From contig JBAZTS010000002.1 of NCBI GenBank assembly GCA_041661795.1, forward strand, positions 36,263 through 100,262: a stretch of 64,000 nt of DNA, written 5' to 3'. A program made the position numbers and the translations under genes. This stretch comes from Minisyncoccota bacterium (lineage in GTDB: Bacteria; Patescibacteriota; Minisyncoccia; UBA6257; JAGOQP01). Below, piece after piece: positions 10,391 through 57,417 of the stretch (within the stretch, counting starts at the first letter, position 1; the number at the start of each line of letters is the position of its first letter). Below the pieces are notes generated by a model. That model saw nothing but the letters and a program-made list of their open reading frames with translations, did no database searches and was not told where the DNA came from.

Positions 10391-10420
10391 AAAAACCCCT
10401 TTTGGGGTTTTTGTTTTTTT
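10391..10420 (+). terminator. Rho-independent terminator (aaaaacccctttt ggggttttt)
   Basis: Hairpin plus T-run. Confidence 0.6.
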
Positions 10421-10421
10421 A

Positions 10422-10450
10422 CCCCCACACTAATGGAATTAGTGTGGGGG
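10422..10450. repeat. CCCCCACACTAAT-N3-ATTAGTGTGGGGG hairpin/palindrome (family copy 1)
   Basis: 13-bp perfect inverted repeat; related copies at 15335-15361 and 37311-37369. Confidence 0.55.
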
Positions 10451-10469
10451 TTTATGGTAATATACTGGG

Positions 10470-10787
10470 ATGAAGATAATAGTAAAATCAACAGGTTTAG
10501 AGCTTTCTGAGGCGCTAAACGAATTTATAAGTATTAAGCTATCTTCTCTGTCTAAATTTATTGTAAAATTTGAGAAGAAATCAGAAGCTATTTTAAAAGT
10601 TGAAGTGGCTAGATCCACTAAGCATCGCCATAAAGGGGATGTCTATTACGTGGAGTTGTCATTAGCGCTTCCAAAAAATGATTTAAGAATAGAACAATAC
10701 GATGAAGATATAAGATCGGGAATTGATAAAGCCAAAAGAAAAATGGCTCTTGAAATAAAAAAGATTGATGACAAGCATTTTAGATAA
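10470..10787 (+). CDS. hpf: Ribosome hibernation promoting factor (RaiA/HPF, short form)
   Basis: MKI.V...G.ELSEAL.E.I..KL..L.KF... EA...V.V.R......G..Y.VE..L pattern. Confidence 0.8.
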   Translation: MKIIVKSTGLELSEALNEFISIKLSSLSKFIVKFEKKSEAILKVEVARSTKHRHKGDVYYVELSLALPKNDLRIEQYDEDIRSGIDKAKRKMALEIKKIDDKHFR

Positions 10788-13350
10788 AATTTTTTCTCCT
10801 CTTGGTTCTTACCGTAAGAGAGTGGTTAAGATAAATGATTTTGAAAAAGAATTGTCTTTGCTCTCTGATGAGGAAATTAAGAATAAATCTCTTAAATTAA
10901 AAGAGGGTTTTTCCGGTGATCAAGAATATCTGGAAAACAACCTTGAATTGGCTTTTGCTTTAGTTAGAGAATCCTCCAAAAGAAATTTAAAGCAAAGACA
11001 TTTTGATGTCCAGCTTATTGGAGGTTTGGCAATGTCAGATGGAAAAATAGTTGAAATGGCAACGGGAGAAGGAAAAACTTTATCAGCCACACTGCCGGCT
11101 TATCTTTATGGAATCAGTGGAAAAGGAGTTCATGTTATTACTGTCAATGATTATCTTGCCAAAAGAGACGCTGTCTGGATGGGACAGATATATGATTTTT
11201 TAGGATTAACAGTTAGTTGTTTAGTTCATGACGGGGCGTATGTGTATGATTCTAAATATACAAATGAAATTCAAAGTGAAGAAGTGGCAGATGAAAAAAG
11301 AGATGTTGTTGGGGGTTTTAAAGTAATTCAAGAGTTTTTGAAACCAATATCAAGAAGAGAGGCCTATTTGTCAGATATAGTTTATGGAACTAACCACGAG
11401 TTTGGTTTTGATTATCTTAGAGATAATTTGGCTTACAATTCTAAAAATCAGGTCCAACGAGAGCATTATTTTGCTATTATTGACGAGGTAGACAGTATTT
11501 TAATAGATGAAGCCAGAACTCCTTTGATTATTTCAGCTCCAGACGTTGAAGCGGCTCAATACTACAAGGTTTTTGCCAAAGTAGTTAGTTCTTTGGAGAT
11601 TGAAAAGGATTATACAGTTGAAGAGAAAGATAGATCGGCCGTTATGACAGATGATGGTATTGCCAAGGTGGAAAAAATGCTGAATATAGAAAATATTTAT
11701 GATGCTCAATCTGCTTCCCTAGTTCACTATCTTGAAGAATCTTTAAAAGCCAAAGCTCTTTTTAGAAGAGACAGGCATTATGTTGTTAAATCCACTCCTT
11801 CTGGCGAGGGAGAAATTATTATAGTTGATGAATTTACCGGTCGCTTAATGCATGGAAGAAGGTATTCTGGGGGACTTCACCAGGCCATTGAAGCCAAAGA
11901 GGGGGTGAGAATTCAAGAGGAATCAAAAACGTTTGCTCAAATAACTATACAAAATTATTTTCGTCTTTATGAAAAAATAAGCGGAATGACGGGAACCGCC
12001 AAAACCAGCGCTGAAGAATTTAGGAAGGTTTACGGATTGGAAGTTGCTGTTATTCCATCCAATAAGCCCAGAGTAAGAAACGATAAATCGGATTTGATTT
12101 TCAAAACAAAAGAATCCAAATATCAGGCCATCGTGGGTGCTATAAAAGAAATGGTTGAAAAAGGCCAACCGGTTTTAGTTGGCACAACATCAATAGATGA
12201 GAACGAACTTTTATCCTCATATTTTTCCAATGCGGGAATAAAACATGAAGTGCTTAATGCCAAAAACCACGAAAGAGAGGGAGAAATAATTGCTCAGGCC
12301 GGAAGGTCGGAAGGCGTAACTTTAGCCACCAACATGGCTGGAAGAGGAGTGGATATAGTTTTAGGAGGAAATCCTCAAGATGTTTTGGATGCGCAAAAAG
12401 TTAAAGATGCCGGAGGACTTTTTGTTTTAGGAACTCAAAGAAATGAAGCCAGAAGAGTTGATAATCAGTTAAGAGGGCGCTCGGGAAGACAGGGGGATCC
12501 CGGAGAAACACAATTTTTTCTTTCTTTGGAGGATGATATGTTAAGAATTTTTGGAGGAGACAGAATCAAGTCAATGATGAATAGAATGAATATGCCCGAT
12601 GACGTTCCCATAGAATCATCTTTAATCGGAAAAGTAGTGGACGAAGCCCAAAAGAAAGTTGAAGGAATGAATTTTGATATCAGAAAACACCTGTTGGAAT
12701 ATGACGATGTTTTAAACAAACAAAGAAAAGCTGTTTATAGGAAAAGACAAAATATCTTAGAAAGGTTAGAAAAAGGGGAGTTGGAAGATGTTTTAAAAGA
12801 ATTGATTTTAGACGTCCTTAAATTTATTTTTTCAAATCCAACCAAGGATTTGGATTCTATAAAACAATGGTTTGAAGAAGTCGGGTTGGTTAGTAAAGAA
12901 GAAAAAGACAGTTTTAACGTTGAACAAGTGGAAAGCTCAATAAATCAGGGAGTGTTGGATGAATTTATTCTATCTAAAATAAATAACGTCTGTCAGGACC
13001 CGCAAGTTGGATTAAAAATACTTGGGTCCTTGGACGGGTTTTGGACTAATCACTTGGAAAATCTGGAGGCCTTATTGGAATCGGTAAGGATGAGAGCTTA
13101 TGGTCAAAAGGACCCACTGGTTGAATATAAAAGAGAAGGCCATCAGCTTTTTAAGGATTTAATAATTAACGCTCAAGTTTGGGTTGTCTCTAATGTTTTT
13201 AAGGAAATTCAAATCAATCCCAACAAAAATGTTTCTCAGAAATCTTTAGATACGATATACGATATACGAAATACGGATTCCAAATTAGGCCGTAATGACC
13301 CTTGTTATTGCGGAAGCGGTAAAAAATATAAAAAGTGCCATGGAAAATAA
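10765..13350 (+). CDS. secA: Preprotein translocase ATPase SecA
   Basis: 861 aa; MATGEGKTL Walker A; DEAD-like motor; C-terminal Zn finger CYCGSGKKYKKCHG. Confidence 0.95.
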   Translation: MMTSILDKIFSPLGSYRKRVVKINDFEKELSLLSDEEIKNKSLKLKEGFSGDQEYLENNLELAFALVRESSKRNLKQRHFDVQLIGGLAMSDGKIVEMATGEGKTLSATLPAYLYGISGKGVHVITVNDYLAKRDAVWMGQIYDFLGLTVSCLVHDGAYVYDSKYTNEIQSEEVADEKRDVVGGFKVIQEFLKPISRREAYLSDIVYGTNHEFGFDYLRDNLAYNSKNQVQREHYFAIIDEVDSILIDEARTPLIISAPDVEAAQYYKVFAKVVSSLEIEKDYTVEEKDRSAVMTDDGIAKVEKMLNIENIYDAQSASLVHYLEESLKAKALFRRDRHYVVKSTPSGEGEIIIVDEFTGRLMHGRRYSGGLHQAIEAKEGVRIQEESKTFAQITIQNYFRLYEKISGMTGTAKTSAEEFRKVYGLEVAVIPSNKPRVRNDKSDLIFKTKESKYQAIVGAIKEMVEKGQPVLVGTTSIDENELLSSYFSNAGIKHEVLNAKNHEREGEIIAQAGRSEGVTLATNMAGRGVDIVLGGNPQDVLDAQKVKDAGGLFVLGTQRNEARRVDNQLRGRSGRQGDPGETQFFLSLEDDMLRIFGGDRIKSMMNRMNMPDDVPIESSLIGKVVDEAQKKVEGMNFDIRKHLLEYDDVLNKQRKAVYRKRQNILERLEKGELEDVLKELILDVLKFIFSNPTKDLDSIKQWFEEVGLVSKEEKDSFNVEQVESSINQGVLDEFILSKINNVCQDPQVGLKILGSLDGFWTNHLENLEALLESVRMRAYGQKDPLVEYKREGHQLFKDLIINAQVWVVSNVFKEIQINPNKNVSQKSLDTIYDIRNTDSKLGRNDPCYCGSGKKYKKCHGK

Positions 13351-15280: not shown

Positions 15281-15334
15281 ATGAGATTATTATATCACAA
15301 TGGTGATTTTTATTCACTAAGATTGTGGATAAAT

Positions 15335-15361
15335 CCCCACACTAATTCTATTAGTGTGGGG
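15335..15361. repeat. CCCCACACTAAT-N3-ATTAGTGTGGGG hairpin (family copy 2)
   Basis: 12-bp inverted repeat between lepB 3' end and pilin-like gene start. Confidence 0.5.
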
Positions 15362-15367
15362 ATAAAC

Positions 15368-16012: not shown

Positions 16013-18334
16013 ATGTTAAGCGACAATATACGCAATTTTTGTATTATAGCCCACATAGATCACGGCAAATCTACATTGGCTGATAGGTTGCTTGAAATTA
16101 CAGGAACTATAGATAAGAGGAAGATGAAGAACCAATATCTTGATCAATTGGAATTGGAAAGAGAAAGAGGGATAACTATCAAAATGGCTCCTGTCCGCAT
16201 GCTCTATGCGCTGACTAACGCCGACTCTACGCCGACTGACGCAGACAATAAGAAATTAGATAATGCGAGTAGTCAATTATTGTATGAAGATTTAACCTAT
16301 AAAATAAGAGGAGTGTTGTTTGGCGTAAAGAAAAAAATAGGACTTGGTCATAAAGAAGTTATTTACCAAAAGGCCATAGAAGAAGAATTGACAAAAGAGA
16401 ACATACCTTTTGAAAAAGAAAAAATAATTAATATAGAACTTGATAATAAAAGTCTTGGCGTATACAGACCAGATTTTGTTATTGATAATAAAATTATATT
16501 AGAGATAAAATCTTTGCCTTTTATTGGAGATGTTGAGAAAAGGCAAGTTTGGACATATCTTAAGGGATCAGAATATAAATTGGCTTTATTAGTCAATTTC
16601 AATTCTAGAGATATTGATATTAAAAGAGTTGTGTATGATACAGCCAGAGAAATTCAGCGTGAGTCAGCGTTTAGTCAGCGTAAGTCGGCGCAGGTTGAGC
16701 AGTATGTGCTCAACCTGATAGACACTCCCGGGCATCCGGATTTTGGTTATGAAGTTTCCAGAGCTTTGGAAGCGGTTGAGGGGGCAATTTTGTTGGTTGA
16801 TGGAATGCAAGGAATACAAGCACAAACGTTATCTAATTTTTATGCTGCCAAAAAAGCCGGACTTACAATTATTGGCGCGGTTAACAAAGTGGATTTAAAT
16901 ATTCCTGACATAGATAAAGTTGTAATGGAAACAGCGGAGCTAATTGGTTGTGGGCCAGAACAAATTCATAAAATATCAGGAAGAACAGGAGAGGGAGTTC
17001 AACAGCTTTTGGGAGCAGTTATTCTTAGAATCCTACCTCCAAAAGCTGTAATTCCCAATTTCCAATTCCCAATTTCCAATTTTGGAAGGGCATTAATATT
17101 TGATTCTTTTTATGACGACCACAAAGGAATTATAGCCAGTGTCAGGGTATTTAATGGAGAATTTAATCAGTTTGATGATGTGGTTTTGGTGGCTGCTAAA
17201 GAAAAATTTAAAACAAAAGAAGTCGGATATTTTTCTCCGACCCTAAATCCTTCAAAAAGAATTTTAGAGGGAGAGATAGGTTATTTGGTTACCGGGATAA
17301 GAGACCCGTATAAAATAAAAATCGGTGACACGGTAATAGGTCACAAATCACAAGTCGCGCATCACGAATCGTATGCTTTGCCCGGATACAAAGAACCAAA
17401 GCCGGTGGTGTTTGTTTCTTTCTATCCAGACAATCCGGATGAATATGATGATTTAAAAAAATCTTTGGAAAGATTAAAGCTTAACGACTCTTCTTTTGCT
17501 TTTGAGCCGGATTTAAATGAAGTGTTGGGCAGGGGATTTAAAGGAGGATTTTTGGGAAAGCTTCATTTTGAAATAATTTCTCAGCGTCTTGAAAGAGAGT
17601 TTGGAATAAAAACAATCACATCTTTTCCTTCGGTCAGTTATAAAATAAAAACTTCTTCCAAACACTTAGCTCATCTAAAATTGGACGAAGATGGATTTTT
17701 CATAGCGTATAATCCCAAAGATATTCCTGAAGAATTTGAAAAGATATTAGAACCGATGATAAAAGTTGAAATTGTTTCATCACAAAAAATATTGGGAACA
17801 GTTTTGGGACTTAAAGATGCTTTTCGTTGGGAATACATAGAGACCCAACAATTGGGAGAAAAAGTTATTATTAAAACCAGAATGCCCTTGGCTGAGCTTA
17901 TCTCGGATTTTGACGACCAGTTAAAATCGGTTTCAGGTGGATTTGCTTCTTTTAGTTATGAAGAAGACGGCTATCAACAGGGCGATTTAATTAGGATGGA
18001 TATTTTAGTGGCAGACGAAATAGTTCCTGGGCTTTCTAGAATTCTTCCCAAAAAAGACATAGAATATCCGGCCAGGAAAATGGTTGTTCGCTTAAAGGAA
18101 GTATTGCCTCATCAGCAATTTACCCAAGCTATTCAAGCCAAAGTCGGAGGGAGAATTATAGCCAGAGAAACTATTGCGGCTTTAAGAAAAGATGTGACCG
18201 GATATCTTTATGGAGGAGACAGAACAAGAAAAATGAAACTTTGGAAAAAACAGCAAAGAGGCAAAAAGAAACTTCTTTCTATGGCCAAAGTGACCATATC
18301 TCCAGAAAACTTCAAGAAACTTCTTTCAAAATAA
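16013..18334 (+). CDS. lepA: Elongation factor 4 (LepA) carrying an in-frame ~167-aa GxxExxY-domain insertion in the G domain
   Basis: AHIDHGKST ... [insertion] ... DTPGHPDF, NKVDL, LepA C-terminal domain; 773 aa vs ~600 typical. Confidence 0.9.
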   Translation: MLSDNIRNFCIIAHIDHGKSTLADRLLEITGTIDKRKMKNQYLDQLELERERGITIKMAPVRMLYALTNADSTPTDADNKKLDNASSQLLYEDLTYKIRGVLFGVKKKIGLGHKEVIYQKAIEEELTKENIPFEKEKIINIELDNKSLGVYRPDFVIDNKIILEIKSLPFIGDVEKRQVWTYLKGSEYKLALLVNFNSRDIDIKRVVYDTAREIQRESAFSQRKSAQVEQYVLNLIDTPGHPDFGYEVSRALEAVEGAILLVDGMQGIQAQTLSNFYAAKKAGLTIIGAVNKVDLNIPDIDKVVMETAELIGCGPEQIHKISGRTGEGVQQLLGAVILRILPPKAVIPNFQFPISNFGRALIFDSFYDDHKGIIASVRVFNGEFNQFDDVVLVAAKEKFKTKEVGYFSPTLNPSKRILEGEIGYLVTGIRDPYKIKIGDTVIGHKSQVAHHESYALPGYKEPKPVVFVSFYPDNPDEYDDLKKSLERLKLNDSSFAFEPDLNEVLGRGFKGGFLGKLHFEIISQRLEREFGIKTITSFPSVSYKIKTSSKHLAHLKLDEDGFFIAYNPKDIPEEFEKILEPMIKVEIVSSQKILGTVLGLKDAFRWEYIETQQLGEKVIIKTRMPLAELISDFDDQLKSVSGGFASFSYEEDGYQQGDLIRMDILVADEIVPGLSRILPKKDIEYPARKMVVRLKEVLPHQQFTQAIQAKVGGRIIARETIAALRKDVTGYLYGGDRTRKMKLWKKQQRGKKKLLSMAKVTISPENFKKLLSK
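16202..16702 (+). mobile_element. In-frame insertion within lepA encoding a complete GxxExxY-family PD-(D/E)XK domain, flanked by GC-rich AGTC(A/G)GCG-octamer inverted repeats
   Basis: DLTYKIRG...GHKEVIY...PDFVIDNKIILEIKS...LALLVNFN matches GxxExxY family; arms 16218-16262 and 16655-16700. Confidence 0.55.
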
Positions 18335-18349
18335 TTTTTATTTGTGTCT

Positions 18350-18450
18350 TTTTTTAAATAAGCTTTAGGAAAGATTTTGAGGCCATGCGGAAGACGGCGG
18401 TCTGAGCTAGAGGGATTTTTCAGCAGAAAAATACCCGTGCCTAAAAATTT
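18350..18450 (+). repeat. ~95-nt conserved intergenic element (copy A), candidate 5' leader/ncRNA; inverted copy at 46835-46930
   Basis: Near-identical core GAGGGATTTTTCAGCAGAAAAATACCCGTGCC shared with reverse complement of 46835-46930. Confidence 0.5.
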
Positions 18451-18472
18451 TTTCTAAAGCGGATTAGTATTA

Positions 18473-18787
18473 TTGGTTGTAAGTTATTGGCTGTCTTGTT
18501 ATTATTTACTTATGAGTGTTAAGAGGGCTGTTTGGCTGACGGTTTTTGGTTTGTTTTTGCTACTTTTGTGGGTTAATTTATTTGTCATATTTAAAGAATT
18601 AAGAAAGTTGTCTTTGGAATACAAGCAAGTGAGTGAAGATTTTGTGAAACTGGAAGATGAAAACAAGATGATAGAAAGAGATATAGCTTTTTATTCTTTT
18701 CCGGCTAATTTAGAAAAGAATTTAAGAGAGAAATTTAATTATAAAAAAACGGGGGAGAAAATGATTATTGTTGTTCCGGGAAATTAA
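18473..18787 (+). CDS. FtsB/DivIC-like septum formation initiator (possible start at 18512)
   Basis: Single TM then coiled-coil KLSLEYKQVSEDFVKLEDENKMIERDIAF. Confidence 0.45.
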   Translation: MVVSYWLSCYYLLMSVKRAVWLTVFGLFLLLLWVNLFVIFKELRKLSLEYKQVSEDFVKLEDENKMIERDIAFYSFPANLEKNLREKFNYKKTGEKMIIVVPGN

Positions 18788-19374: not shown

Positions 19375-19385
19375 TATATAATTTG

Positions 19386-19456
19386 AGCGGGATACGGGAA
19401 TCGAACCCGCGCTTCAACCTTGGGAAGGTCGTGTATTACCACTGTACTAATCCCGC
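19386..19456 (-). tRNA. tRNA-Gly (anticodon CCC)
   Basis: GCGGGAT acceptor, anticodon arm CGACC-TTCCCAA-GGTTG, T-arm GGGTTCGATTCCC, discriminator U; no encoded CCA. Confidence 0.85.
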
Positions 19457-19477: not shown

Positions 19478-20668
19478 ATGAAATATCTTAGAAATGTCAA
19501 AATAGAAAAGATAAGAAACAAAACCTGCGTTTTAAGGTTGGGTTTGGATATAAAGGATGGTGAGTTAAAAAATTCGTTGAGAGTTATAAAATCTATCCCG
19601 ACACTCAAATTTCTATTAAAAAACGACTGCAAAGTAGTGATAATTTCACATCGAGGTAGACCTCAAGAGGGGAAAGAGGAAAGTGAAAAGAGGAAAGTGA
19701 AAAGAGAAGAAACTTTAAGATCATTTGTGGAGATTTTTGAAAAACTACTAAAAACAAAGATTAGTTTTGATGACTCTTTTGATTTTAAAAAGATGAGTGA
19801 AAAGATTAAAAAACTTCACTCAAAATCTATAGTTATTGTTGAAAATATAAGATTAGTAAAAGGAGAAAAGGATGATAACGATAAGCTAGGGAGAGAATTG
19901 GCTTCTTTGGGAAATTTTTATGTGAATGATGATTTTTCTACCAGTCACAGAAAAAACGCTTCTTTATGTGCGATAACAAAATTCACACCTTCTTATGTTG
20001 GCCTGCAGTTTGAAGAAGAAATAAAGAATTTAGACAAAGTTCTTAAAAATCAAAGGAAGCCAGTTGTTCTGATTGTAGGGGGAGTTAAATTGTCGGACAA
20101 AGTTGGCGTAATAAAAAATTTCTTAAACAAGGCAGATTATGTTTTGACCGGTGGGGGAGTTTCCAATACTTTCTTTGCTGCTAAAGAAATTCCAGTTGGT
20201 GATTCGTTAATTGATAAAGAAATGATGAAAATGGCAAAAACCTTACTTAAATCAAAAAAAATCATTTTACCCCAAGACGTTAGGATAAAAGGAAAATCTA
20301 TATTGGATATAGGGGATAAAACCATTGAAGAATATAAAAAAATAATAGAAAAAGCAGGGACTATTATTTGGGGTGGACCGTTAGGATATTTTGAGGACAA
20401 AAAATTTGCCAAAGGAACATTTGAAATAGCCAGAGCGATTTTAAAATCAAAAGCTTTTTGTGTTATTGGCGGCGGAGAAACTACAGTCGCCTTTCTTAAG
20501 GCAACTCGCGGACTTACACGGACTTCACGCAGAACTACGCGGAAAACAGTCAGCGTCAGTCAGCGTTCAGTCGGCGTTGGTCAGCGCTTGTTTCTGTCTA
20601 CTGGTGGAGGGGCAATGTTGGAATATCTAGCAGGTAAAAAATTACCGGCTTTGGAAGCGCTTAAATAA
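19478..20668 (+). CDS. pgk: Phosphoglycerate kinase with two in-frame low-complexity insertions
   Basis: VIISHRGRP, FSTSHR, GGGVSNTF, STGGGAMLEYLAGKKLPALEAL; insertions at 19670-19715 and 20511-20588. Confidence 0.9.
   Translation: MKYLRNVKIEKIRNKTCVLRLGLDIKDGELKNSLRVIKSIPTLKFLLKNDCKVVIISHRGRPQEGKEESEKRKVKREETLRSFVEIFEKLLKTKISFDDSFDFKKMSEKIKKLHSKSIVIVENIRLVKGEKDDNDKLGRELASLGNFYVNDDFSTSHRKNASLCAITKFTPSYVGLQFEEEIKNLDKVLKNQRKPVVLIVGGVKLSDKVGVIKNFLNKADYVLTGGGVSNTFFAAKEIPVGDSLIDKEMMKMAKTLLKSKKIILPQDVRIKGKSILDIGDKTIEEYKKIIEKAGTIIWGGPLGYFEDKKFAKGTFEIARAILKSKAFCVIGGGETTVAFLKATRGLTRTSRRTTRKTVSVSQRSVGVGQRLFLSTGGGAMLEYLAGKKLPALEALK
20511..20588 (+). repeat. In-frame GC-rich AGTCAGCG-octamer repeat insertion in pgk (encodes TRTSRRTTRKTVSVSQRSVGVGQR)
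   Basis: cagtcagcgtcagtcagcgttcagtcggcgttggtcagcg; same octamer family as lepA insertion arms. Confidence 0.55.
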
Positions 20669-22067: not shown

Positions 22068-22073
22068 CTTAAA

Positions 22074-22428
22074 AGATAAGTGAGTGATTGCCCTGACATT
22101 TGTTGGGGAGGAAAGTCCGGACTCCCATCTCCGACGTAACGTCGGAGTAAACGTATTCGCTAACAGCGAACTATCGCAAGATAAGAGGTGCGAACAGAGA
22201 CGAGTCCTAATGGAAACATTAGGGGTGAAACGGTCCCGACGCCTATTTCGGGTTAGGGACTCCGACATCCGCAAGGATCGTCGGAGCTAAATCCTTGCGG
22301 GGTGCAAGACCGTATCCGCCCAGGGCGGGTGAGTCGCTTGAACCTGAGAGTAATTGAAGGTCCAGACAAATAATCACTATCCCGACGTAACGTCGGGACA
22401 CAGAATCCGGCTTATAGCTTATCTAAAC
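22074..22428 (+). ncRNA. rnpB: RNase P RNA (bacterial type A)
   Basis: GGAGGAAAGTCCGGACTCC (P4 5' strand), AGGGGTGAAACGGT, ACAGAATCCGGCTTATAG (P4 3' strand), P1 pairing agataag/cttatct; GC-rich versus surroundings. Confidence 0.85.
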
Positions 22429-22500
22429 ATATCAAGAATCTCTCCTTAACGGGGGGATTTTTGATTGATTTATTAAGGGTTTTTTGATACTTTTAACAAG

Positions 22501-27781: not shown

Positions 27782-27852
27782 TGGGAGATCGTCTAATGGT
27801 AGGACAGCGGCCTTTGAAGCCGTGAATCGGGGTTCGAATCCCTGTCTCCCAG
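27782..27852 (+). tRNA. tRNA-Gln (anticodon TTG)
   Basis: U1-A72 acceptor pair, anticodon loop CTTTGAA, T-arm GGGTTCGAATCCC, discriminator G. Confidence 0.85.
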
Positions 27853-27856
27853 CAAT

Positions 27857-37310: not shown

Positions 37311-37369
37311 CCCCCACACCAATTTTGCTTATTATCGTCAAGTGCGTGTTGGCAGAATTGGTGTGGGGG
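37311..37369. repeat. CCCCCACACCAATT-N31-AATTGGTGTGGGGG hairpin (family copy 3, with compensatory change)
   Basis: 14-bp stem; CTAAT->CCAATT change mirrored in the 3' arm. Confidence 0.5.
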
Positions 37370-46331: not shown

Positions 46332-46817
46332 TTATTTTATCTTCTGTATTGAAACATCATCTTCTTTTTGAATGGACAATTTGTCTATAGTTCCGGCATT
46401 TATTTCTAAGACCATATCAATTAATTGCTGAGGTAAAATTGTTATCGGATCTTCTCCGTTTTTTGGGTAATCAACATTTTTATCTACTCTCACCACTTTA
46501 TTGTTATTAATCCAGACAAAGTCCAGCGGGAATTTCATTTCTCTCATTGAAAATCCAACCGCCTGGCTTGTTCCAAAAATGAATAACATTCCTTTATCTT
46601 CTTCCATGAAAACTACTCCAGAAAGGCCTTGCGCTTTTTTATATGAAGAAGCCGAAACTTGAGCTTCTATTTCTTTTCCGTTGATTGATATTATGGCCGT
46701 GTTTTCGTCGTTCCATTCTATTTCTCCCTTTTGATAATAATTACTTACGATAAACCAAATCAAAAACAGCAAAGCAACGGAGATTATTATGATGAATAAA
46801 ATAGTAATCATTTTCAT
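46332..46817 (-). CDS. DUF192-family protein
   Basis: N-terminal TM; GMLFIF..., PLDFVWIN..KVV....NV.P typical of DUF192 (COG1430). Confidence 0.65.
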   Translation of the reverse strand: MKMITILFIIIISVALLFLIWFIVSNYYQKGEIEWNDENTAIISINGKEIEAQVSASSYKKAQGLSGVVFMEEDKGMLFIFGTSQAVGFSMREMKFPLDFVWINNNKVVRVDKNVDYPKNGEDPITILPQQLIDMVLEINAGTIDKLSIQKEDDVSIQKIK

Positions 46818-46834
46818 GGGTTTTATTATTTCGT

Positions 46835-46930
46835 TTCAGAAAAGGTTTTGGGGCACGGGTATTTTTCTGCTGAAAAATCCCTCAAGCTCAGCCCGTCGGC
46901 TTCCGCACGGTCCCAAAACCTTTTCTAAAA
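46835..46930 (-). repeat. ~95-nt conserved intergenic element (copy B, minus orientation), in 5' leader of DUF192 gene
   Basis: Reverse complement matches 18373-18450 with the GGGATTTTTCAGCAGAAAAATACCC hairpin core. Confidence 0.5.
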
Positions 46931-46955
46931 CTACAAATATGTTAAAATCATTATT

Positions 46956-47384
46956 ATGAAAAATTATCTATATATAGCAATTGTGTTGGTTTTAGTTATC
47001 GGGGGAATCGTATATAATTCTTATAATAAAAATAACATAAATAATATGAGTAATACACAAGAGGGACTTATTATTGAGGACTTGATAGTTGGCGGTGGAA
47101 AAGAGGCGCAGGTTAAAGATAGTGTGGTGGTGAATTATGTAGGCACTCTTACCGATGGAACTAAGTTTGATAGCTCTTATGATAGAGGTCAGCCATTTCC
47201 TTTTATACTGGGAGCGGGCGACGTCATAAAGGGTTGGGACAAGGGAGTTTTAGGGATGAAAGTCGGTGGTAAAAGAAAATTAACAATTTCTCCCGAACTG
47301 GCTTATGGCGACAGTGGAGCCGGGTCAATTATCCCTCCCAACGCCACCTTGATATTTGAAGTTGAGTTATTAAAAGTTGAATAG
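46956..47384 (+). CDS. FKBP-type peptidyl-prolyl cis-trans isomerase
   Basis: [51 protein letters not shown]. Confidence 0.85.
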
Positions 47385-55467: not shown

Positions 55468-56607
55468 TTAATCGGTATATGTCCGTGACCGACGTAGTCG
55501 GTGGTATCGTATAGCAAATCTGTGGGCTTCGTTTCTTAACGAAAGTAATGTATTTTTAACATCTTCGGGGATTTGGCTCAAGCTGATAGGGGATTTTGAA
55601 TAGGGACTGTAAATCAATCCTTTTGTTTGTGATCTTTTATATTTCTTGCCAACATCGTTAATTAACTTACCATTACAATTAGAACGATCGTTGTAATTGT
55701 AATGGTGTGGATTATTACCCACAGATTGCAATTTGCCCACGTTTAGTTTTGCTAGAGCTATCATCGGAATCTTAATTGTTTTGAGTTGTGAGATTTGTGA
55801 TTTTCCTCCGTCAATGATAATTAAATCCGGATATTTCCATTCTTTGTGGTTAAGGCGTCTTTCTATAATTTCTTTTATTGAAGCCGGGTCATTGGCTCCT
55901 TTTATCGTTTTTATTTTAAATTTTCTGTAAAGATTTTTATTAGGTTTATTTCCGATAAACGTTACCATTGAGCCAACTGACAAACTACCTTGGGTATTGG
56001 AAATGTCGTAGCACTCAATATGTGTTTTTTCTCCATTATATAAACGAAGAAAAGTTTTTAATCCATTAACCACCTGGATGTATTTTTTTACTTCGATATT
56101 ATGAGCGGAACATAACCCTAAGTGATAATACAAGCACGGCTTTTCCGGTTTATTTTTACATGTGCGATAGGGGAATATTCTTCTGATTATCAATAAGAGA
56201 TGCTTAATCTCTTTTGCGTCTACAAACGGGCCAACAAAATCGGCTTTAAATTTTTTTGTTTGGTGTGTTAAAAGCACTCTGGGGTACTTTTCGTCGGTAA
56301 AAGCTATATACAAAAAATCCTTGTCATCTTTAAGTTCAATGTTATATTTTGGCTGATACTGTCTAACTAATTTTCTTTCTAAAATCAAGGCGTCTTTTTC
56401 AGATGGGGTTTCTATAAAATCTAAGTCAGCTACTTGTTTGTAAAAATTAATAGAAGCATTCTCTTGTCTAGAAAAATGCGATTCTATTCTCTTTTTTATA
56501 TTAATAGCTTTTCCGATATACAAAATCTTCTCATTCTTATCTTTGAAAATATATACTCCCGGTTTCTTAGGAAGTGCTTTTATCTTATTCTTCAGGATTG
56601 TTTTCAC
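55468..56607 (-). CDS. uvrC: Excinuclease ABC subunit C, short form lacking C-terminal (HhH)2 region; GTG start; contains in-frame palindrome insertion
   Basis: GIY-YIG PGVYIFKDKNEKILYIGKA, UvrC Cys-region, RNEAHRFAIRYHR motif near C-terminus; 379 aa vs ~600 typical. Confidence 0.8.
   Translation of the reverse strand: MKTILKNKIKALPKKPGVYIFKDKNEKILYIGKAINIKKRIESHFSRQENASINFYKQVADLDFIETPSEKDALILERKLVRQYQPKYNIELKDDKDFLYIAFTDEKYPRVLLTHQTKKFKADFVGPFVDAKEIKHLLLIIRRIFPYRTCKNKPEKPCLYYHLGLCSAHNIEVKKYIQVVNGLKTFLRLYNGEKTHIECYDISNTQGSLSVGSMVTFIGNKPNKNLYRKFKIKTIKGANDPASIKEIIERRLNHKEWKYPDLIIIDGGKSQISQLKTIKIPMIALAKLNVGKLQSVGNNPHHYNYNDRSNCNGKLINDVGKKYKRSQTKGLIYSPYSKSPISLSQIPEDVKNTLLSLRNEAHRFAIRYHRLRRSRTYTD
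55670..55705. repeat. 36-bp palindrome copy 1 (CCATTACAATTAGAACGATCGTTGTAATTGTAATGG) inside uvrC coding sequence, in-frame
   Basis: One mismatch from perfect symmetry; translated as ...YNYNDRSNCNGKLIN... Confidence 0.6.
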
Positions 56608-56645
56608 TGTTTTTTTATTTTTATCCTTATCTTAATCTTAATCTA

Positions 56646-56681
56646 CCATTACATTTAGAACGATCGTTCTAAATGTAATGG
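56646..56681. repeat. 36-bp perfect palindrome copy 2 (CCATTACATTTAGAACGATCGTTCTAAATGTAATGG), 39 nt upstream of uvrC start and abutting PaaX-like gene stop
   Basis: Perfect symmetry with symmetric A/T change relative to copy 3. Confidence 0.6.
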
Positions 56682-56684
56682 TGG

Positions 56685-57245: not shown

Positions 57246-57270
57246 AACAATATTATATCATCATTTATTA

Positions 57271-57306
57271 CCATTACAATTAGAACGATCGTTCTAATTG
57301 TAATGG
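57271..57306. promoter_or_regulatory. 36-bp perfect palindrome copy 3 overlapping putative leaderless promoter (TTGTAA-N16-TATAAT) of PaaX-like gene
   Basis: CCATTACAATTAGAACGATCGTTCTAATTGTAATGG; TATAAT 6 nt before the ATG. Confidence 0.5.
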
Positions 57307-57417
57307 AGGGAGTATATATGATTAAGAATATTAAATAATTATCATAGAGTTATTATGATTATAGATTGATTTTATCGTTTTAATTAAAGAGTGCCTTATA
57401 AATTAGCACGGACCGCT

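What the first reader, a model, noticed from the sequence alone, without database searches (positions are those of the whole stretch)
18350..18450. Conserved ~95-nt element (copy A) in the 5' leader of an FtsB-like gene
The segment ...TTTTGAGGCCATGCGGAAGACGGCGGTCTGAGCTAGAGGGATTTTTCAGCAGAAAAATACCCGTGCC... recurs nearly identically, in inverse orientation, at 46835-46930. Each time it lies immediately upstream of a gene, on the strand of that gene. It contains a 10-bp hairpin GGGATTTTTC-AGCA-GAAAAAT(A)CCC plus a more variable GC-rich 5' part. This suggests a shared cis-regulatory RNA (riboswitch- or attenuator-like) or a small RNA family.
Basis: seen in the sequence. Interest (0 to 1): 0.55.

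Follow-up and report, generated by a model that had tools for sequence, protein, structure and literature searches.

The report
Dispersed three-way-junction RNA-like repeat
A roughly 100-base sequence that folds into a closed three-armed hairpin occurs at least three times in one tiny-genome (Candidatus Paceibacterota) bacterium, so it looks like a new species-specific structured RNA or mobile repeat and not a switch for the genes next to it.

Summary
Copy A (window 18362-18460, +) and copy B (46931-46833, -) are paralogues with an identical 32-nt core.

It closes the unit into a three-way junction: P1, a short P2 with an invariant GGA/GA internal loop, and the invariant P3 hairpin.

A third copy lies on another contig of the same MAG (L009 7744-7642, -). 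Across the three copies, 98% of pair cells are paired. Seven pairs show changes on both sides. P1 varies more than the core (16/44 against 5/55 columns).

The cis-regulatory reading fails on several counts:
- Copy C points into the 3' end of a convergent gene.
- No terminator or start-site-masking structure follows any copy.
- P1 is far too stable to switch.
- Four relatives keep lepA-divIC synteny with 36-53-nt spacers and no element.

No match turned up in Rfam or in the other collections searched.

Best reading (about 0.4): a lineage-restricted structured small-RNA module that spread as a discrete unit. Its invariant core would be a recognition surface for an unknown partner. The main rival (about 0.3) is a hairpin-forming mobile repeat. 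Function is unknown. The element is a modestly interesting new RNA motif candidate.

The parts
18362..18460 (+). Copy A, whole unit (99 nt): closed three-way junction between the lepA stop (18334) and the DivIC/FtsB-like ATG (18512)
   Evidence: 127.8 bits with model R1; 115.5 bits with R2. MFE is -40.3 kcal/mol, z = -6.0. The opposite strand reaches only -30.3.
18362..18383 (+). Copy A, P1 5' arm (pairs with 18439-18460)
   Evidence: 22 pairs, 97% of cells paired across three copies, 6 pairs changed on both sides.
18387..18407 (+). Copy A, P2: GC / GGA-GA internal loop / 4-bp stem AGAC-GUCU / loop GGCG
   Evidence: pair 37-44 is A-U in copy A and C-G in copies B and C. The internal loop is invariant.
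18412..18436 (+). Copy A, P3 hairpin GGGAUUUUUC-AGCA-GAAAAAU(A)CCC, invariant in all three copies
   Evidence: 10 pairs, none varies.
18439..18460 (+). Copy A, P1 3' arm
46833..46931 (-). Copy B, whole unit (99 nt), in the 138-nt divergent spacer between DUF192 (ATG 46817, -) and FKBP (ATG 46956, +)
   Evidence: 125.5 bits; 119.5 bits. MFE is -42.5 kcal/mol, z = -5.0.
46910..46931 (-). Copy B, P1 5' arm (pairs with 46833-46854)
46886..46906 (-). Copy B, P2 (stem AGCC-GGCU, loop GACG)
46857..46881 (-). Copy B, P3 hairpin, identical to copy A
46833..46854 (-). Copy B, P1 3' arm
16013..18334 (+). lepA (context only): copy A starts 28 nt after its stop codon, so read-through from lepA would transcribe copy A in the sense orientation
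   Evidence: In four relatives the lepA-divIC spacer is only 36-53 nt.
18512..18787 (+). DivIC/FtsB-like gene (context only)
   Evidence: PF04977, E = 4.9e-5, below the cut-off. Syntenic orthologues hit DivIC.
46332..46817 (-). DUF192 gene (context only)

Best explanation
The element is a lineage-restricted, low-copy family of discrete units of about 100 nt. It is not a leader for the adjacent genes.

**Shown**
- The unit begins and ends at the foot of a 21-23-bp closing stem, P1.
- P1 and P2 keep their pairing through compensatory changes.
- The junction strands, the GGA/GA internal loop of P2 and the whole P3 hairpin are essentially invariant.
- There are three copies in about 120 kb of one Candidatus Paceibacterota genome. 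They sit in unrelated intergenic sites, with no constant orientation to their neighbours.
- Relatives lack the element, including at the orthologous lepA-divIC junction.

**Inferred**
- Each copy is transcribed, by read-through (copy A from lepA) or from a nearby promoter. For copy B a candidate site is TTGCTA-16-CATAAT. Such sites occur at the chance rate in that region.
- P1 only has to close and stabilise the molecule. It may also define its ends by double-strand-specific processing.
- The invariant core is a sequence-specific recognition surface for a trans-acting partner, most likely a protein.
- The family spread by duplication or insertion of the bare structured unit, without flanking promoter or terminator.
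For: **Structure**
- 98.2% of 114 pair cells are paired, and 7 pairs are changed on both sides. Sliding the 3' partners by 1-3 columns gives 0-2 such pairs. Only 1 of 500 shuffles reaches the observed values.
- MFE z-scores are -5.0 to -6.3, and no shuffle folds as well.

**Strand**
- There are 5 G-U cells against 1 A-C cell.
- The named strand is more stable by 10 kcal/mol in copy A and 11 kcal/mol in copy C. In copy B the two strands are about equal.

**Selection on the core**
- 5 of 55 core columns vary against 16 of 44 P1 columns (Fisher p = 0.0012).
- Pairwise identity is 91-98% in the core and 75-77% in P1.

**Discrete unit**
- Similarity ends at the foot of P1 in a three-way alignment with flanks.

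**Same genome, unrelated contexts**
- NCBI accessions and locus tags (WC705_01635 and WC705_03260) tie both contigs to one MAG.
- Copy C is antisense to both of its neighbours.

**Lineage-restricted**
- The element is absent from 4 relatives with conserved synteny.
- Pattern scans gave no true match in GTDB species genomes.
- In JGI metagenomes the only true match was this organism.
- IMG/VR gave none.
- BLAST against phages and plasmids gave only short chance matches.

**No known family**
- Rfam gave nothing at the gathering threshold or at E <= 10.
Against: - There are no expression data.
- No promoter or terminator is conserved around the three copies. Independent sRNA genes usually duplicate with their promoters.
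- For copy C no convincing promoter was found on the element's strand.
- The strand bias of G-U over A-C is not significant on its own (p = 0.11).
- Only three paralogues from one species are known, so the covariation rests on few events.
- A stem sequence that never varies (P3) is unusual for an RNA selected for structure only. It would also fit a DNA-level site.
- The partner is unidentified.
- Insertion-like behaviour fits a selfish repeat equally well.
Confidence: 0.4

Rival explanations
1. A non-autonomous mobile repeat. The closest analogues are MITE/Correia/ERIC, Rickettsia palindromic elements and REPINs. The hairpin, as single-stranded DNA or RNA, would be what the mobilising enzyme needs. 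Any effect on neighbouring genes would be incidental.
For: - The unit is discrete, with boundaries at the foot of the stem.
- It sits in unrelated intergenic sites in either orientation to the neighbours.
- It looks inserted into a lepA-divIC junction that is tight in four relatives: 177 nt against 36-53 nt.
- It was found in one species only.
- Short-read contigs break inside the invariant core.
Against: - The termini (P1) are the fastest-evolving part and the interior is invariant. This is the reverse of transposase-recognised inverted repeats.
- No target-site duplication is visible at any copy.
- No transposase, RAYT or IS200/IS605 gene appears among the genes called in the roughly 120 kb seen.
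- Only 3 copies occur in about 120 kb.
- All copies are intact and none is eroded.
- The copies sit at the same sites in assemblies from three samples.
Confidence: 0.3
2. A DNA-level site. The invariant near-palindrome GGGATTTTTC-AGCA-GAAAAAT(A)CCC would be a binding or recombination site for a dimeric protein. The flanking inverted repeats would promote cruciform extrusion.
For: - P3 and its flanks are identical in all three copies.
- Orientation relative to genes is irrelevant.
- Every copy sits next to a promoter-like region, although those scans are at the chance rate.
Against: - Half-sites of operators are conserved in sequence, not by covariation. P1 and P2 covary.
- G-U against A-C cells (5:1) and the 10-11 kcal/mol strand asymmetry in copies A and C point to one strand folding on its own.
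- The 4-bp spacer and the bulged A make a poor recombinase core.
Confidence: 0.1
3. One reading: a cis-acting 5' leader (riboswitch or attenuator) that controls the DivIC-like and DUF192 genes. Copy C would be an orphan.
For: - Two of three copies lie 15-51 nt upstream of a co-oriented start codon.
- A three-way junction with invariant junction strands is aptamer-like.
- Copy B would be inside the DUF192 5' UTR if the promoter-like site at 46980-46953 is used.
Against: - Copy C has no co-oriented downstream gene.
- There is no terminator with a U-tract and no alternative pairing with the start region.
- P1 is 21-23 bp, too stable to be displaced.
- The only promoter-like site for the DivIC-like gene lies downstream of copy A.
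- The element is absent upstream of the orthologous divIC in four relatives.
- The genes are unrelated, and Rfam gives no match.
Confidence: 0.06
4. A new small self-cleaving ribozyme or other catalytic RNA. It would be dispersed in the genome the way hammerhead and twister copies are.
For: - The junction is compact, with junction strands of 3, 4 and 2 nt.
- The junction and the internal loop are invariant while stems covary.
- The P2 loop (GNCG) and the P3 loop (AGCA) could form a 2-bp GC loop-loop contact. This is my own reading of the sequence, not a tool result.
- The element is multi-copy and patchily distributed, with no fixed gene neighbours.
Against: - No Rfam ribozyme family matches, even at E <= 10.
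- The hammerhead core CUGANGA...GAAA is not present (sequence).
- An invariant stem (P3) and a 22-bp closing stem are not typical of these ribozymes.
- There is no biochemical evidence.
Confidence: 0.06

Closest known systems
Dispersed intergenic hairpin repeats: Neisseria Correia elements, enterobacterial ERIC, Rickettsia palindromic elements and Pseudomonas REPINs (comparison from general knowledge, not tested against their sequences)
   Same: About 100 nt long, with a long terminal inverted repeat that folds the whole unit into a hairpin. Discrete units sit in short intergenic spacers in either orientation. Species-restricted. A long double-stranded stem that RNase III could cut.
   Different: Here the termini vary and the interior is invariant. 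There is no target-site duplication, the copy number seen is low (3 in about 120 kb), no partner enzyme was seen, and no sequence similarity exists.
Orphan structured ncRNA motifs found by comparative genomics (the many Rfam 'motif' families of unknown function)
   Same: A compact multi-stem junction with covarying stems and invariant junction and loop nucleotides. No consistent gene association.
   Different: No Rfam family matches. It is known from a single species, whereas Rfam motifs normally span many genomes. One stem (P3) is invariant in sequence.
Riboswitch aptamers with a three-way junction (purine, TPP and others)
   Same: Three helices around a junction with conserved junction strands. 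Two copies lie in front of genes.
   Different: There is no expression platform. P1 is 21-23 bp, against about 4-8 bp in those aptamers. One copy has no downstream gene. Relatives have no orthologous conservation, and no Rfam model matches.
Type III hammerhead ribozyme
   Same: A closing stem plus two hairpins around a small junction, possible loop-loop contact, and dispersed multi-copy occurrence.
   Different: The core sequences are absent: CUGAGCUWGA and GU stand in place of CUGANGA and GAAA. Rfam gives no hit.
Integron attC sites
   Same: Structure is conserved rather than sequence in the stem, folding is strand-specific, the size is 57-141 nt, and the centre is sometimes branched.
   Different: There are no RYYYAAC / GTTRRRY boxes at the stem foot (sequence), no cassette array and no integrase nearby. 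The centre is the conserved part here.

Membership tests
Riboswitch / cis-regulatory 5' leader | Every copy lies in the 5' untranslated region of a co-oriented gene | tested here: not met
   Copies A and B do. Copy C (L009 7744-7642, -) faces the 3' end of a convergent gene and has no co-oriented gene downstream.
Riboswitch / cis-regulatory 5' leader | An expression platform: a terminator/antiterminator, or a structure that masks the ribosome-binding region | tested here: not met
   No stem plus U-tract follows any copy. The only 'terminator-like' call is an internal 5-bp artefact inside the element. P1 is 21-23 bp, with whole-unit energies of -40 to -52 kcal/mol.
Riboswitch / cis-regulatory 5' leader | Conserved upstream of orthologous genes in related genomes | tested here: not met
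   Four relatives with lepA-divIC synteny have spacers of 36-53 nt and no covariance-model hit in about 85 kb.
Any Rfam family (riboswitches, ribozymes, SRP, 6S, Y-like RNAs, sRNAs) | Score at or above the family's gathering threshold | tested here: not met
   The whole window at the gathering threshold gives only RNase P and 2 tRNAs. The local search at E <= 10 gives only chance hits of 10-17 bits.
MITE (transposase-mobilised miniature inverted-repeat element) | Terminal inverted repeats conserved between copies | tested here: not met
   Inverted termini exist but are the most variable part: 16 of 44 columns vary, against 5 of 55 in the interior. Pairwise identity in P1 is 75-77%.
MITE (transposase-mobilised miniature inverted-repeat element) | Target-site duplication flanking each copy | tested here: not met
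   The flanks are AAATAA|GGATTA (A), TTTGTA|GAAATA (B) and AGTATG|AAATAA (C). No direct repeat is present.
MITE (transposase-mobilised miniature inverted-repeat element) | A cognate transposase, or many copies, in the genome | tested here: inconclusive
   No transposase appears among the genes called in about 120 kb, and 3 copies were found. The rest of the genome could not be read.
REP / REPIN (RAYT-mobilised) | A conserved 5' GTAG next to the hairpin, and a RAYT gene | tested here: not met
   GTAG precedes copy B only (TTTGTAG). Copies A and C have TAAG and TATGG. No Y1 transposase is seen in the DNA available.
Hammerhead ribozyme | Core CUGANGA between stems I and II, and GAAA between stems II and III | tested here: not met
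   The junction strands are C(R)U, UWGA (or CUGAGCUWGA if the 2-bp helix is opened) and GU. Rfam gives no hit.
Intrinsic terminator | A GC-rich stem followed directly by a U-tract | tested here: not met
   The tails after P1 are CGGAUUAG, CGAAAUAA and CCAAAUAA. The scans find none at the end of the element.
Diversity-generating retroelement component (considered because copy C lies 148 nt upstream of a DGR target gene) | Similarity to the TR/VR, or a position 3' of the VR | tested here: not met
   TR and VR lie at L053 11008-11118 and 10621-10731. The element lies upstream of the target gene on the other strand. The window has no TR-like sequence. Copies A and B have no reverse transcriptase or Avd nearby.
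Independent small-RNA gene | Its own promoter and terminator, and a discrete transcript | not testable with these tools
   Only a weak promoter-like site lies upstream of copy B (9/12 match, at the chance rate for the region). None was found for copies A or C on the element's strand. No transcriptome data are available.

The most novel reading that the evidence does not exclude
The unit is a new class of functional RNA: a small self-cleaving ribozyme, or a protein- or ligand-binding module. It would propagate as a bare structured unit through a Candidate Phyla Radiation genome, possibly copied through RNA. The invariant junction, the GGA/GA loop and P3 would form the active or recognition site.
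Probability: 0.08. Interest if true: 0.8.

Novelty: new member of a known kind. Interest (0 to 1): 0.4.

Why it matters
Non-coding RNAs of Candidate Phyla Radiation bacteria are almost unexplored. My literature searches found no paper on structured RNAs or hairpin repeats in these lineages.

Here only three paralogues already give seven covarying pairs and a clearly constrained core. That makes a well-defined candidate for a new RNA motif, with a covariance model (R2) ready to scan more genomes.

If it is a functional RNA, it shows how a structured module can spread through a very compact genome without promoter or terminator. If it is a selfish repeat, it is an unusual one: its interior, not its ends, is conserved.

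Its reach is currently one species, which limits the general interest.

Tried and rejected
- **Rfam.** The search at the gathering threshold and the local search at E <= 10 gave nothing.
- **GTDB species genomes.** The junction-pattern scan gave one Streptomyces hit. The covariance model did not confirm it, so it is chance.
- **JGI metagenomes.** The scan gave 44 hits, about the chance number I had estimated. Only L009 is real. L026 looked partly similar but is GC-rich and looks like coding sequence.
- **IMG/VR.** Three scans gave 0 hits.
- **Phages and plasmids.** BLAST gave only short chance matches inside coding genes.
- **Homologues of the neighbouring genes.** The nearest DUF192 relative is 38% identical and the nearest LepA relative 64%. 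There are no close relatives to compare.
- **More copies.** Covariance-model searches covered about 17 kb beyond the window ends and about 39 kb of the second contig, and found no further copy. A search of the window with filters off hit only unrelated hairpins.
- **Empty P1 hairpins.** I looked for P1-like hairpins without a core, to test whether the core had inserted into a pre-existing palindrome. None exists in the window.
- **Targets of the core.** I looked for complementarity or similarity between the element and the rest of the genome DNA held, including the rRNA. Only short AT-rich chance matches came up.
- **DGR link.** The retroelement next to copy C is real, but it shares no sequence with the element, and copies A and B have none nearby.
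- **Mini-ORF.** A 6-codon ORF (AUG/GUG CGG AAG NCG NCG GNC UGA) is present in all copies. Its codons change non-synonymously, in step with the P2 stem, and it has no proper ribosome-binding spacing. I rejected it as coding.
- **K-turn.** The GGA/GA loop of P2 has the tandem G-A arrangement and a CUGA box, but only a 1-nt bulge. It is not a canonical K-turn.
- **SRP and Alu-domain resemblance.** No model hit.
- **Further look-ups.** Protein ids from the listing of cluster members were accepted instead.

Full report
**1. Observation**

It recurs at 46931-46833 on the - strand (copy B).

A 32-nt core, GAGGGATTTTTCAGCAGAAAAATACCCGTGCC, is identical in both copies. It occurs nowhere else in the window, and none is expected by chance. 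A repeat search lists the pair as the longest inverted repeat of the window: 109 nt, 83% complementary.

Both copies do lie upstream of a co-oriented gene.
- Copy A lies between the lepA stop codon (18334) and the ATG at 18512 of a 91-aa protein. That protein is weakly DivIC/FtsB-like: PF04977, E = 4.9e-5, below Pfam's cut-off. Its syntenic orthologues in relatives hit DivIC.
- Copy B lies in the 138-nt divergent spacer between a DUF192 gene (ATG at 46817, - strand) and an FKBP gene (ATG at 46956, + strand).

**2. Anatomy**

Folding shows more.

- **P1.** The two ends of the unit pair over 21-23 bp. This AU-rich stem closes a three-way junction.
- **P2.** A 2-bp helix, then an invariant GGA/GA internal loop, then a 4-bp stem with a GNCG loop.
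- **P3.** The 10-bp hairpin GGGAUUUUUC-AGCA-GAAAAAU(A)CCC.
- **Junction strands.** They are 3, 4 and 2 nt long.

Energies are -40.3 (A), -42.5 (B) and -51.7 (C) kcal/mol. The z-scores are -6.0, -5.0 and -6.3. No shuffle folds as well.

A three-way alignment with 60-nt flanks loses all similarity exactly at the foot of P1. The unit is therefore discrete.

**3. A third copy, and whose genome this is**

Proteins encoded in the window are identical to proteins of a Candidatus Paceibacterota MAG, a Candidate Phyla Radiation bacterium. The source contig is 156 kb.

A junction-pattern scan of the GTDB species genomes returned only a chance Streptomyces hit.

A looser core pattern in JGI metagenomes returned 44 hits, about the number I had estimated by chance. 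The covariance model built from A and B confirmed only one: L009 7746-7640 on the - strand, at 115 bits.

Exact-sequence look-up shows that the L009 proteins carry accessions and locus tags of the same MAG: WC705_03260, against WC705_01635 in the window. Copy C is therefore a third paralogue on another contig of the same genome.

Its core is again identical. Its P1 differs again, with pairing kept.

Covariance-model searches of about 17 kb beyond the window ends found no further copy. Nor did searches of about 39 kb of the second contig. That makes three copies in about 120 kb.

Two short-read contigs from another sample end inside the invariant core. This is what an assembler does at a repeat.

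**4. Is the structure selected?**

On the three copies, 98.2% of 114 pair cells are standard pairs. Seven pairs have changes on both sides, six in P1 and one in P2. Sliding the 3' partners by 1-3 columns gives 0-2 such pairs and 31-64% pairing. Only 1 of 500 column shuffles reaches the observed values.

Most double changes are AU-GC transitions, and G-U intermediates are actually present. There are 5 G-U cells against 1 A-C cell on the named strand (p = 0.11 on its own).

The named strand folds 10 kcal/mol better than its complement in copy A and 11 kcal/mol better in copy C. In copy B the two strands are about equal.

The core varies at 5 of 55 columns, and two of those form a compensating pair. 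P1 varies at 16 of 44 columns (Fisher p = 0.0012).

So pairing is maintained in P1 and P2, and sequence is maintained in the junction, the P2 internal loop and all of P3.

**5. Why it is not a leader**

- Copy C lies between two + strand genes but is itself on the - strand. It begins 148 nt upstream of, and divergent from, a DGR target gene. It runs into the stop codon of a convergent lamin-tail-domain gene 13 nt away.
- The near-consensus promoter there (TTGACT-17-TATAAT, 11/12) is on the other strand and serves the DGR target gene.
- No copy is followed by a stem plus U-tract, nor by a sequence that could pair alternatively with the start region.
- P1 is several times longer than the switching helix of known riboswitches.
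- Downstream of copy A, the only promoter-like site for the DivIC-like gene lies after the element (18477-18505). This is a consensus match at the chance rate.
- The four nearest relatives have LepA 59-72% identical. They keep the lepA-divIC-194aa-pgk order with lepA-divIC spacers of 53, 36, 42 and 42 nt, against 177 nt here. They have no covariance-model hit anywhere in about 85 kb.
- Copy A therefore looks like an insertion into a formerly tight junction, probably within an operon.
- The neighbouring genes share no function.

**6. What it most likely is**

The variation pattern, with a covarying closing stem and an invariant junction and hairpin, is that of a functional structured RNA.

The genomic behaviour is that of something that spreads:
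- a bare unit without promoter or terminator;
- unrelated intergenic sites;
- no fixed orientation;
- one species only.

I combine these. The best reading is a lineage-restricted structured-RNA module. It would be transcribed by read-through (copy A from lepA) or from nearby promoters. For copy B a weak candidate site lies at 46980-46953. Its invariant core would be a recognition surface for an unidentified partner. P1 would only close and stabilise the molecule and could define its ends by double-strand-specific processing. My confidence is about 0.4. Transcription, processing and the partner are all inferred.

**7. Rivals**

- **Selfish hairpin repeat (about 0.3).** It explains the insertion-like behaviour. 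It is contradicted by variable termini with an invariant interior and by the absence of target-site duplications. No transposase is seen in the DNA available, and there are no eroded copies.
- **DNA-level protein or recombination site (about 0.1).** It fits the invariant near-palindrome, but not the covariation or the strand asymmetry.
- **Cis-regulatory leader (about 0.06).** See section 5.
- **New self-cleaving or otherwise catalytic RNA (about 0.06).** This is suggested only by the compact invariant junction, a possible loop-loop contact and the dispersed, patchy distribution. It is not computationally testable here.

**8. Comparison with what is known**

No Rfam family matches. The defining features of several families were checked and not met:
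- the hammerhead core;
- attC boxes;
- the REP GTAG;
- conserved MITE termini and target-site duplications;
- a terminator U-tract;
- DGR TR/VR similarity.

Details are in the membership table. In behaviour the element is closest to dispersed intergenic hairpin repeats such as Correia, ERIC, RPE and REPIN. In its conservation pattern it is closest to orphan structured ncRNA motifs. Three literature searches found nothing on such elements in CPR bacteria.

**9. Verdict**

- The cis-regulatory interpretation is not supported.
- The 'small RNA family' interpretation remains plausible.
- It is a new member of a known kind: a species-specific structured intergenic element.
- The structure is unusually clean, but the reach is one species and the function is unknown.
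- Interest is 0.4.

Noticed in passing
window 16013-18334 (lepA), insert at about 16300-16700: LepA (elongation factor 4) carries a PD-(D/E)XK 'GxxExxY' domain (PF13366) inserted in its GTPase region. Dozens of Paceibacteria-like LepA homologues of 740-820 aa have the same architecture, while others of about 600 aa lack it.
   Followed up: partly
window 55662-55707, 56638-56683, 57263-57308: Three copies of a 38-46-nt perfect palindrome, ACCATTACAATTAGAACGATCGTTCTAATTGTAATGGT. They flank the uvrC and PaaX-like genes near uvrA/uvrB. The centre, GAAC-N4-GTTC, resembles a Gram-positive-type SOS (Cheo) box, which suggests a shared repressor operator.
   Followed up: no
window 10418-10455, 15329-15366, 37311-37369: A second hairpin family, CCCCCACAC(T/C)AAT...ATT(A/G)GTGTGGGGG, followed by T-rich sequence. 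These are probably shared intrinsic terminators.
   Followed up: no
window 20530-20590 (inside pgk) and 16655-16695 (inside the LepA insert): In-frame GC-rich runs of a GTCAGCG(T)-like octamer inside coding genes of an otherwise 36% GC genome. They give SVSVSQRSVGVGQR-like and QRESAFSQRKSAQ-like peptide inserts.
   Followed up: no
L053 10001-12509 (same genome, other contig; copy C is at L053 9749-9851): A complete diversity-generating retroelement.
- A 247-aa target gene carries the VR at 10621-10731.
- The TR lies at 11008-11118 and is 78% identical. All 24 differences fall at TR adenines.
- A bAvd gene lies on the opposite strand.
- A reverse transcriptase gene follows.

The VR-bearing gene has a near-consensus promoter that starts right after copy C.
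   Followed up: partly
L053 12500-17800; L052 4233-7775: The 23S rRNA gene next to the DGR carries two LAGLIDADG homing-endonuclease ORFs. The IleRS gene has an inserted histidine-phosphatase (His_Phos_1) domain.
   Followed up: no
window 22072-22430; 19385-19456 (-); 27782-27853: RNase P RNA class A (138.8 bits), tRNA-Gly(CCC) and tRNA-Gln(UUG) are the only Rfam or ARAGORN hits in the window.
   Followed up: yes
L002 1-45 and L054 1-17: Two Logan short-read contigs from sample SRR6484324 end inside the invariant core of copies B and C. These are assembly breaks at the repeat. The same organism is present in at least three samples, with the element at the same sites.
   Followed up: yes
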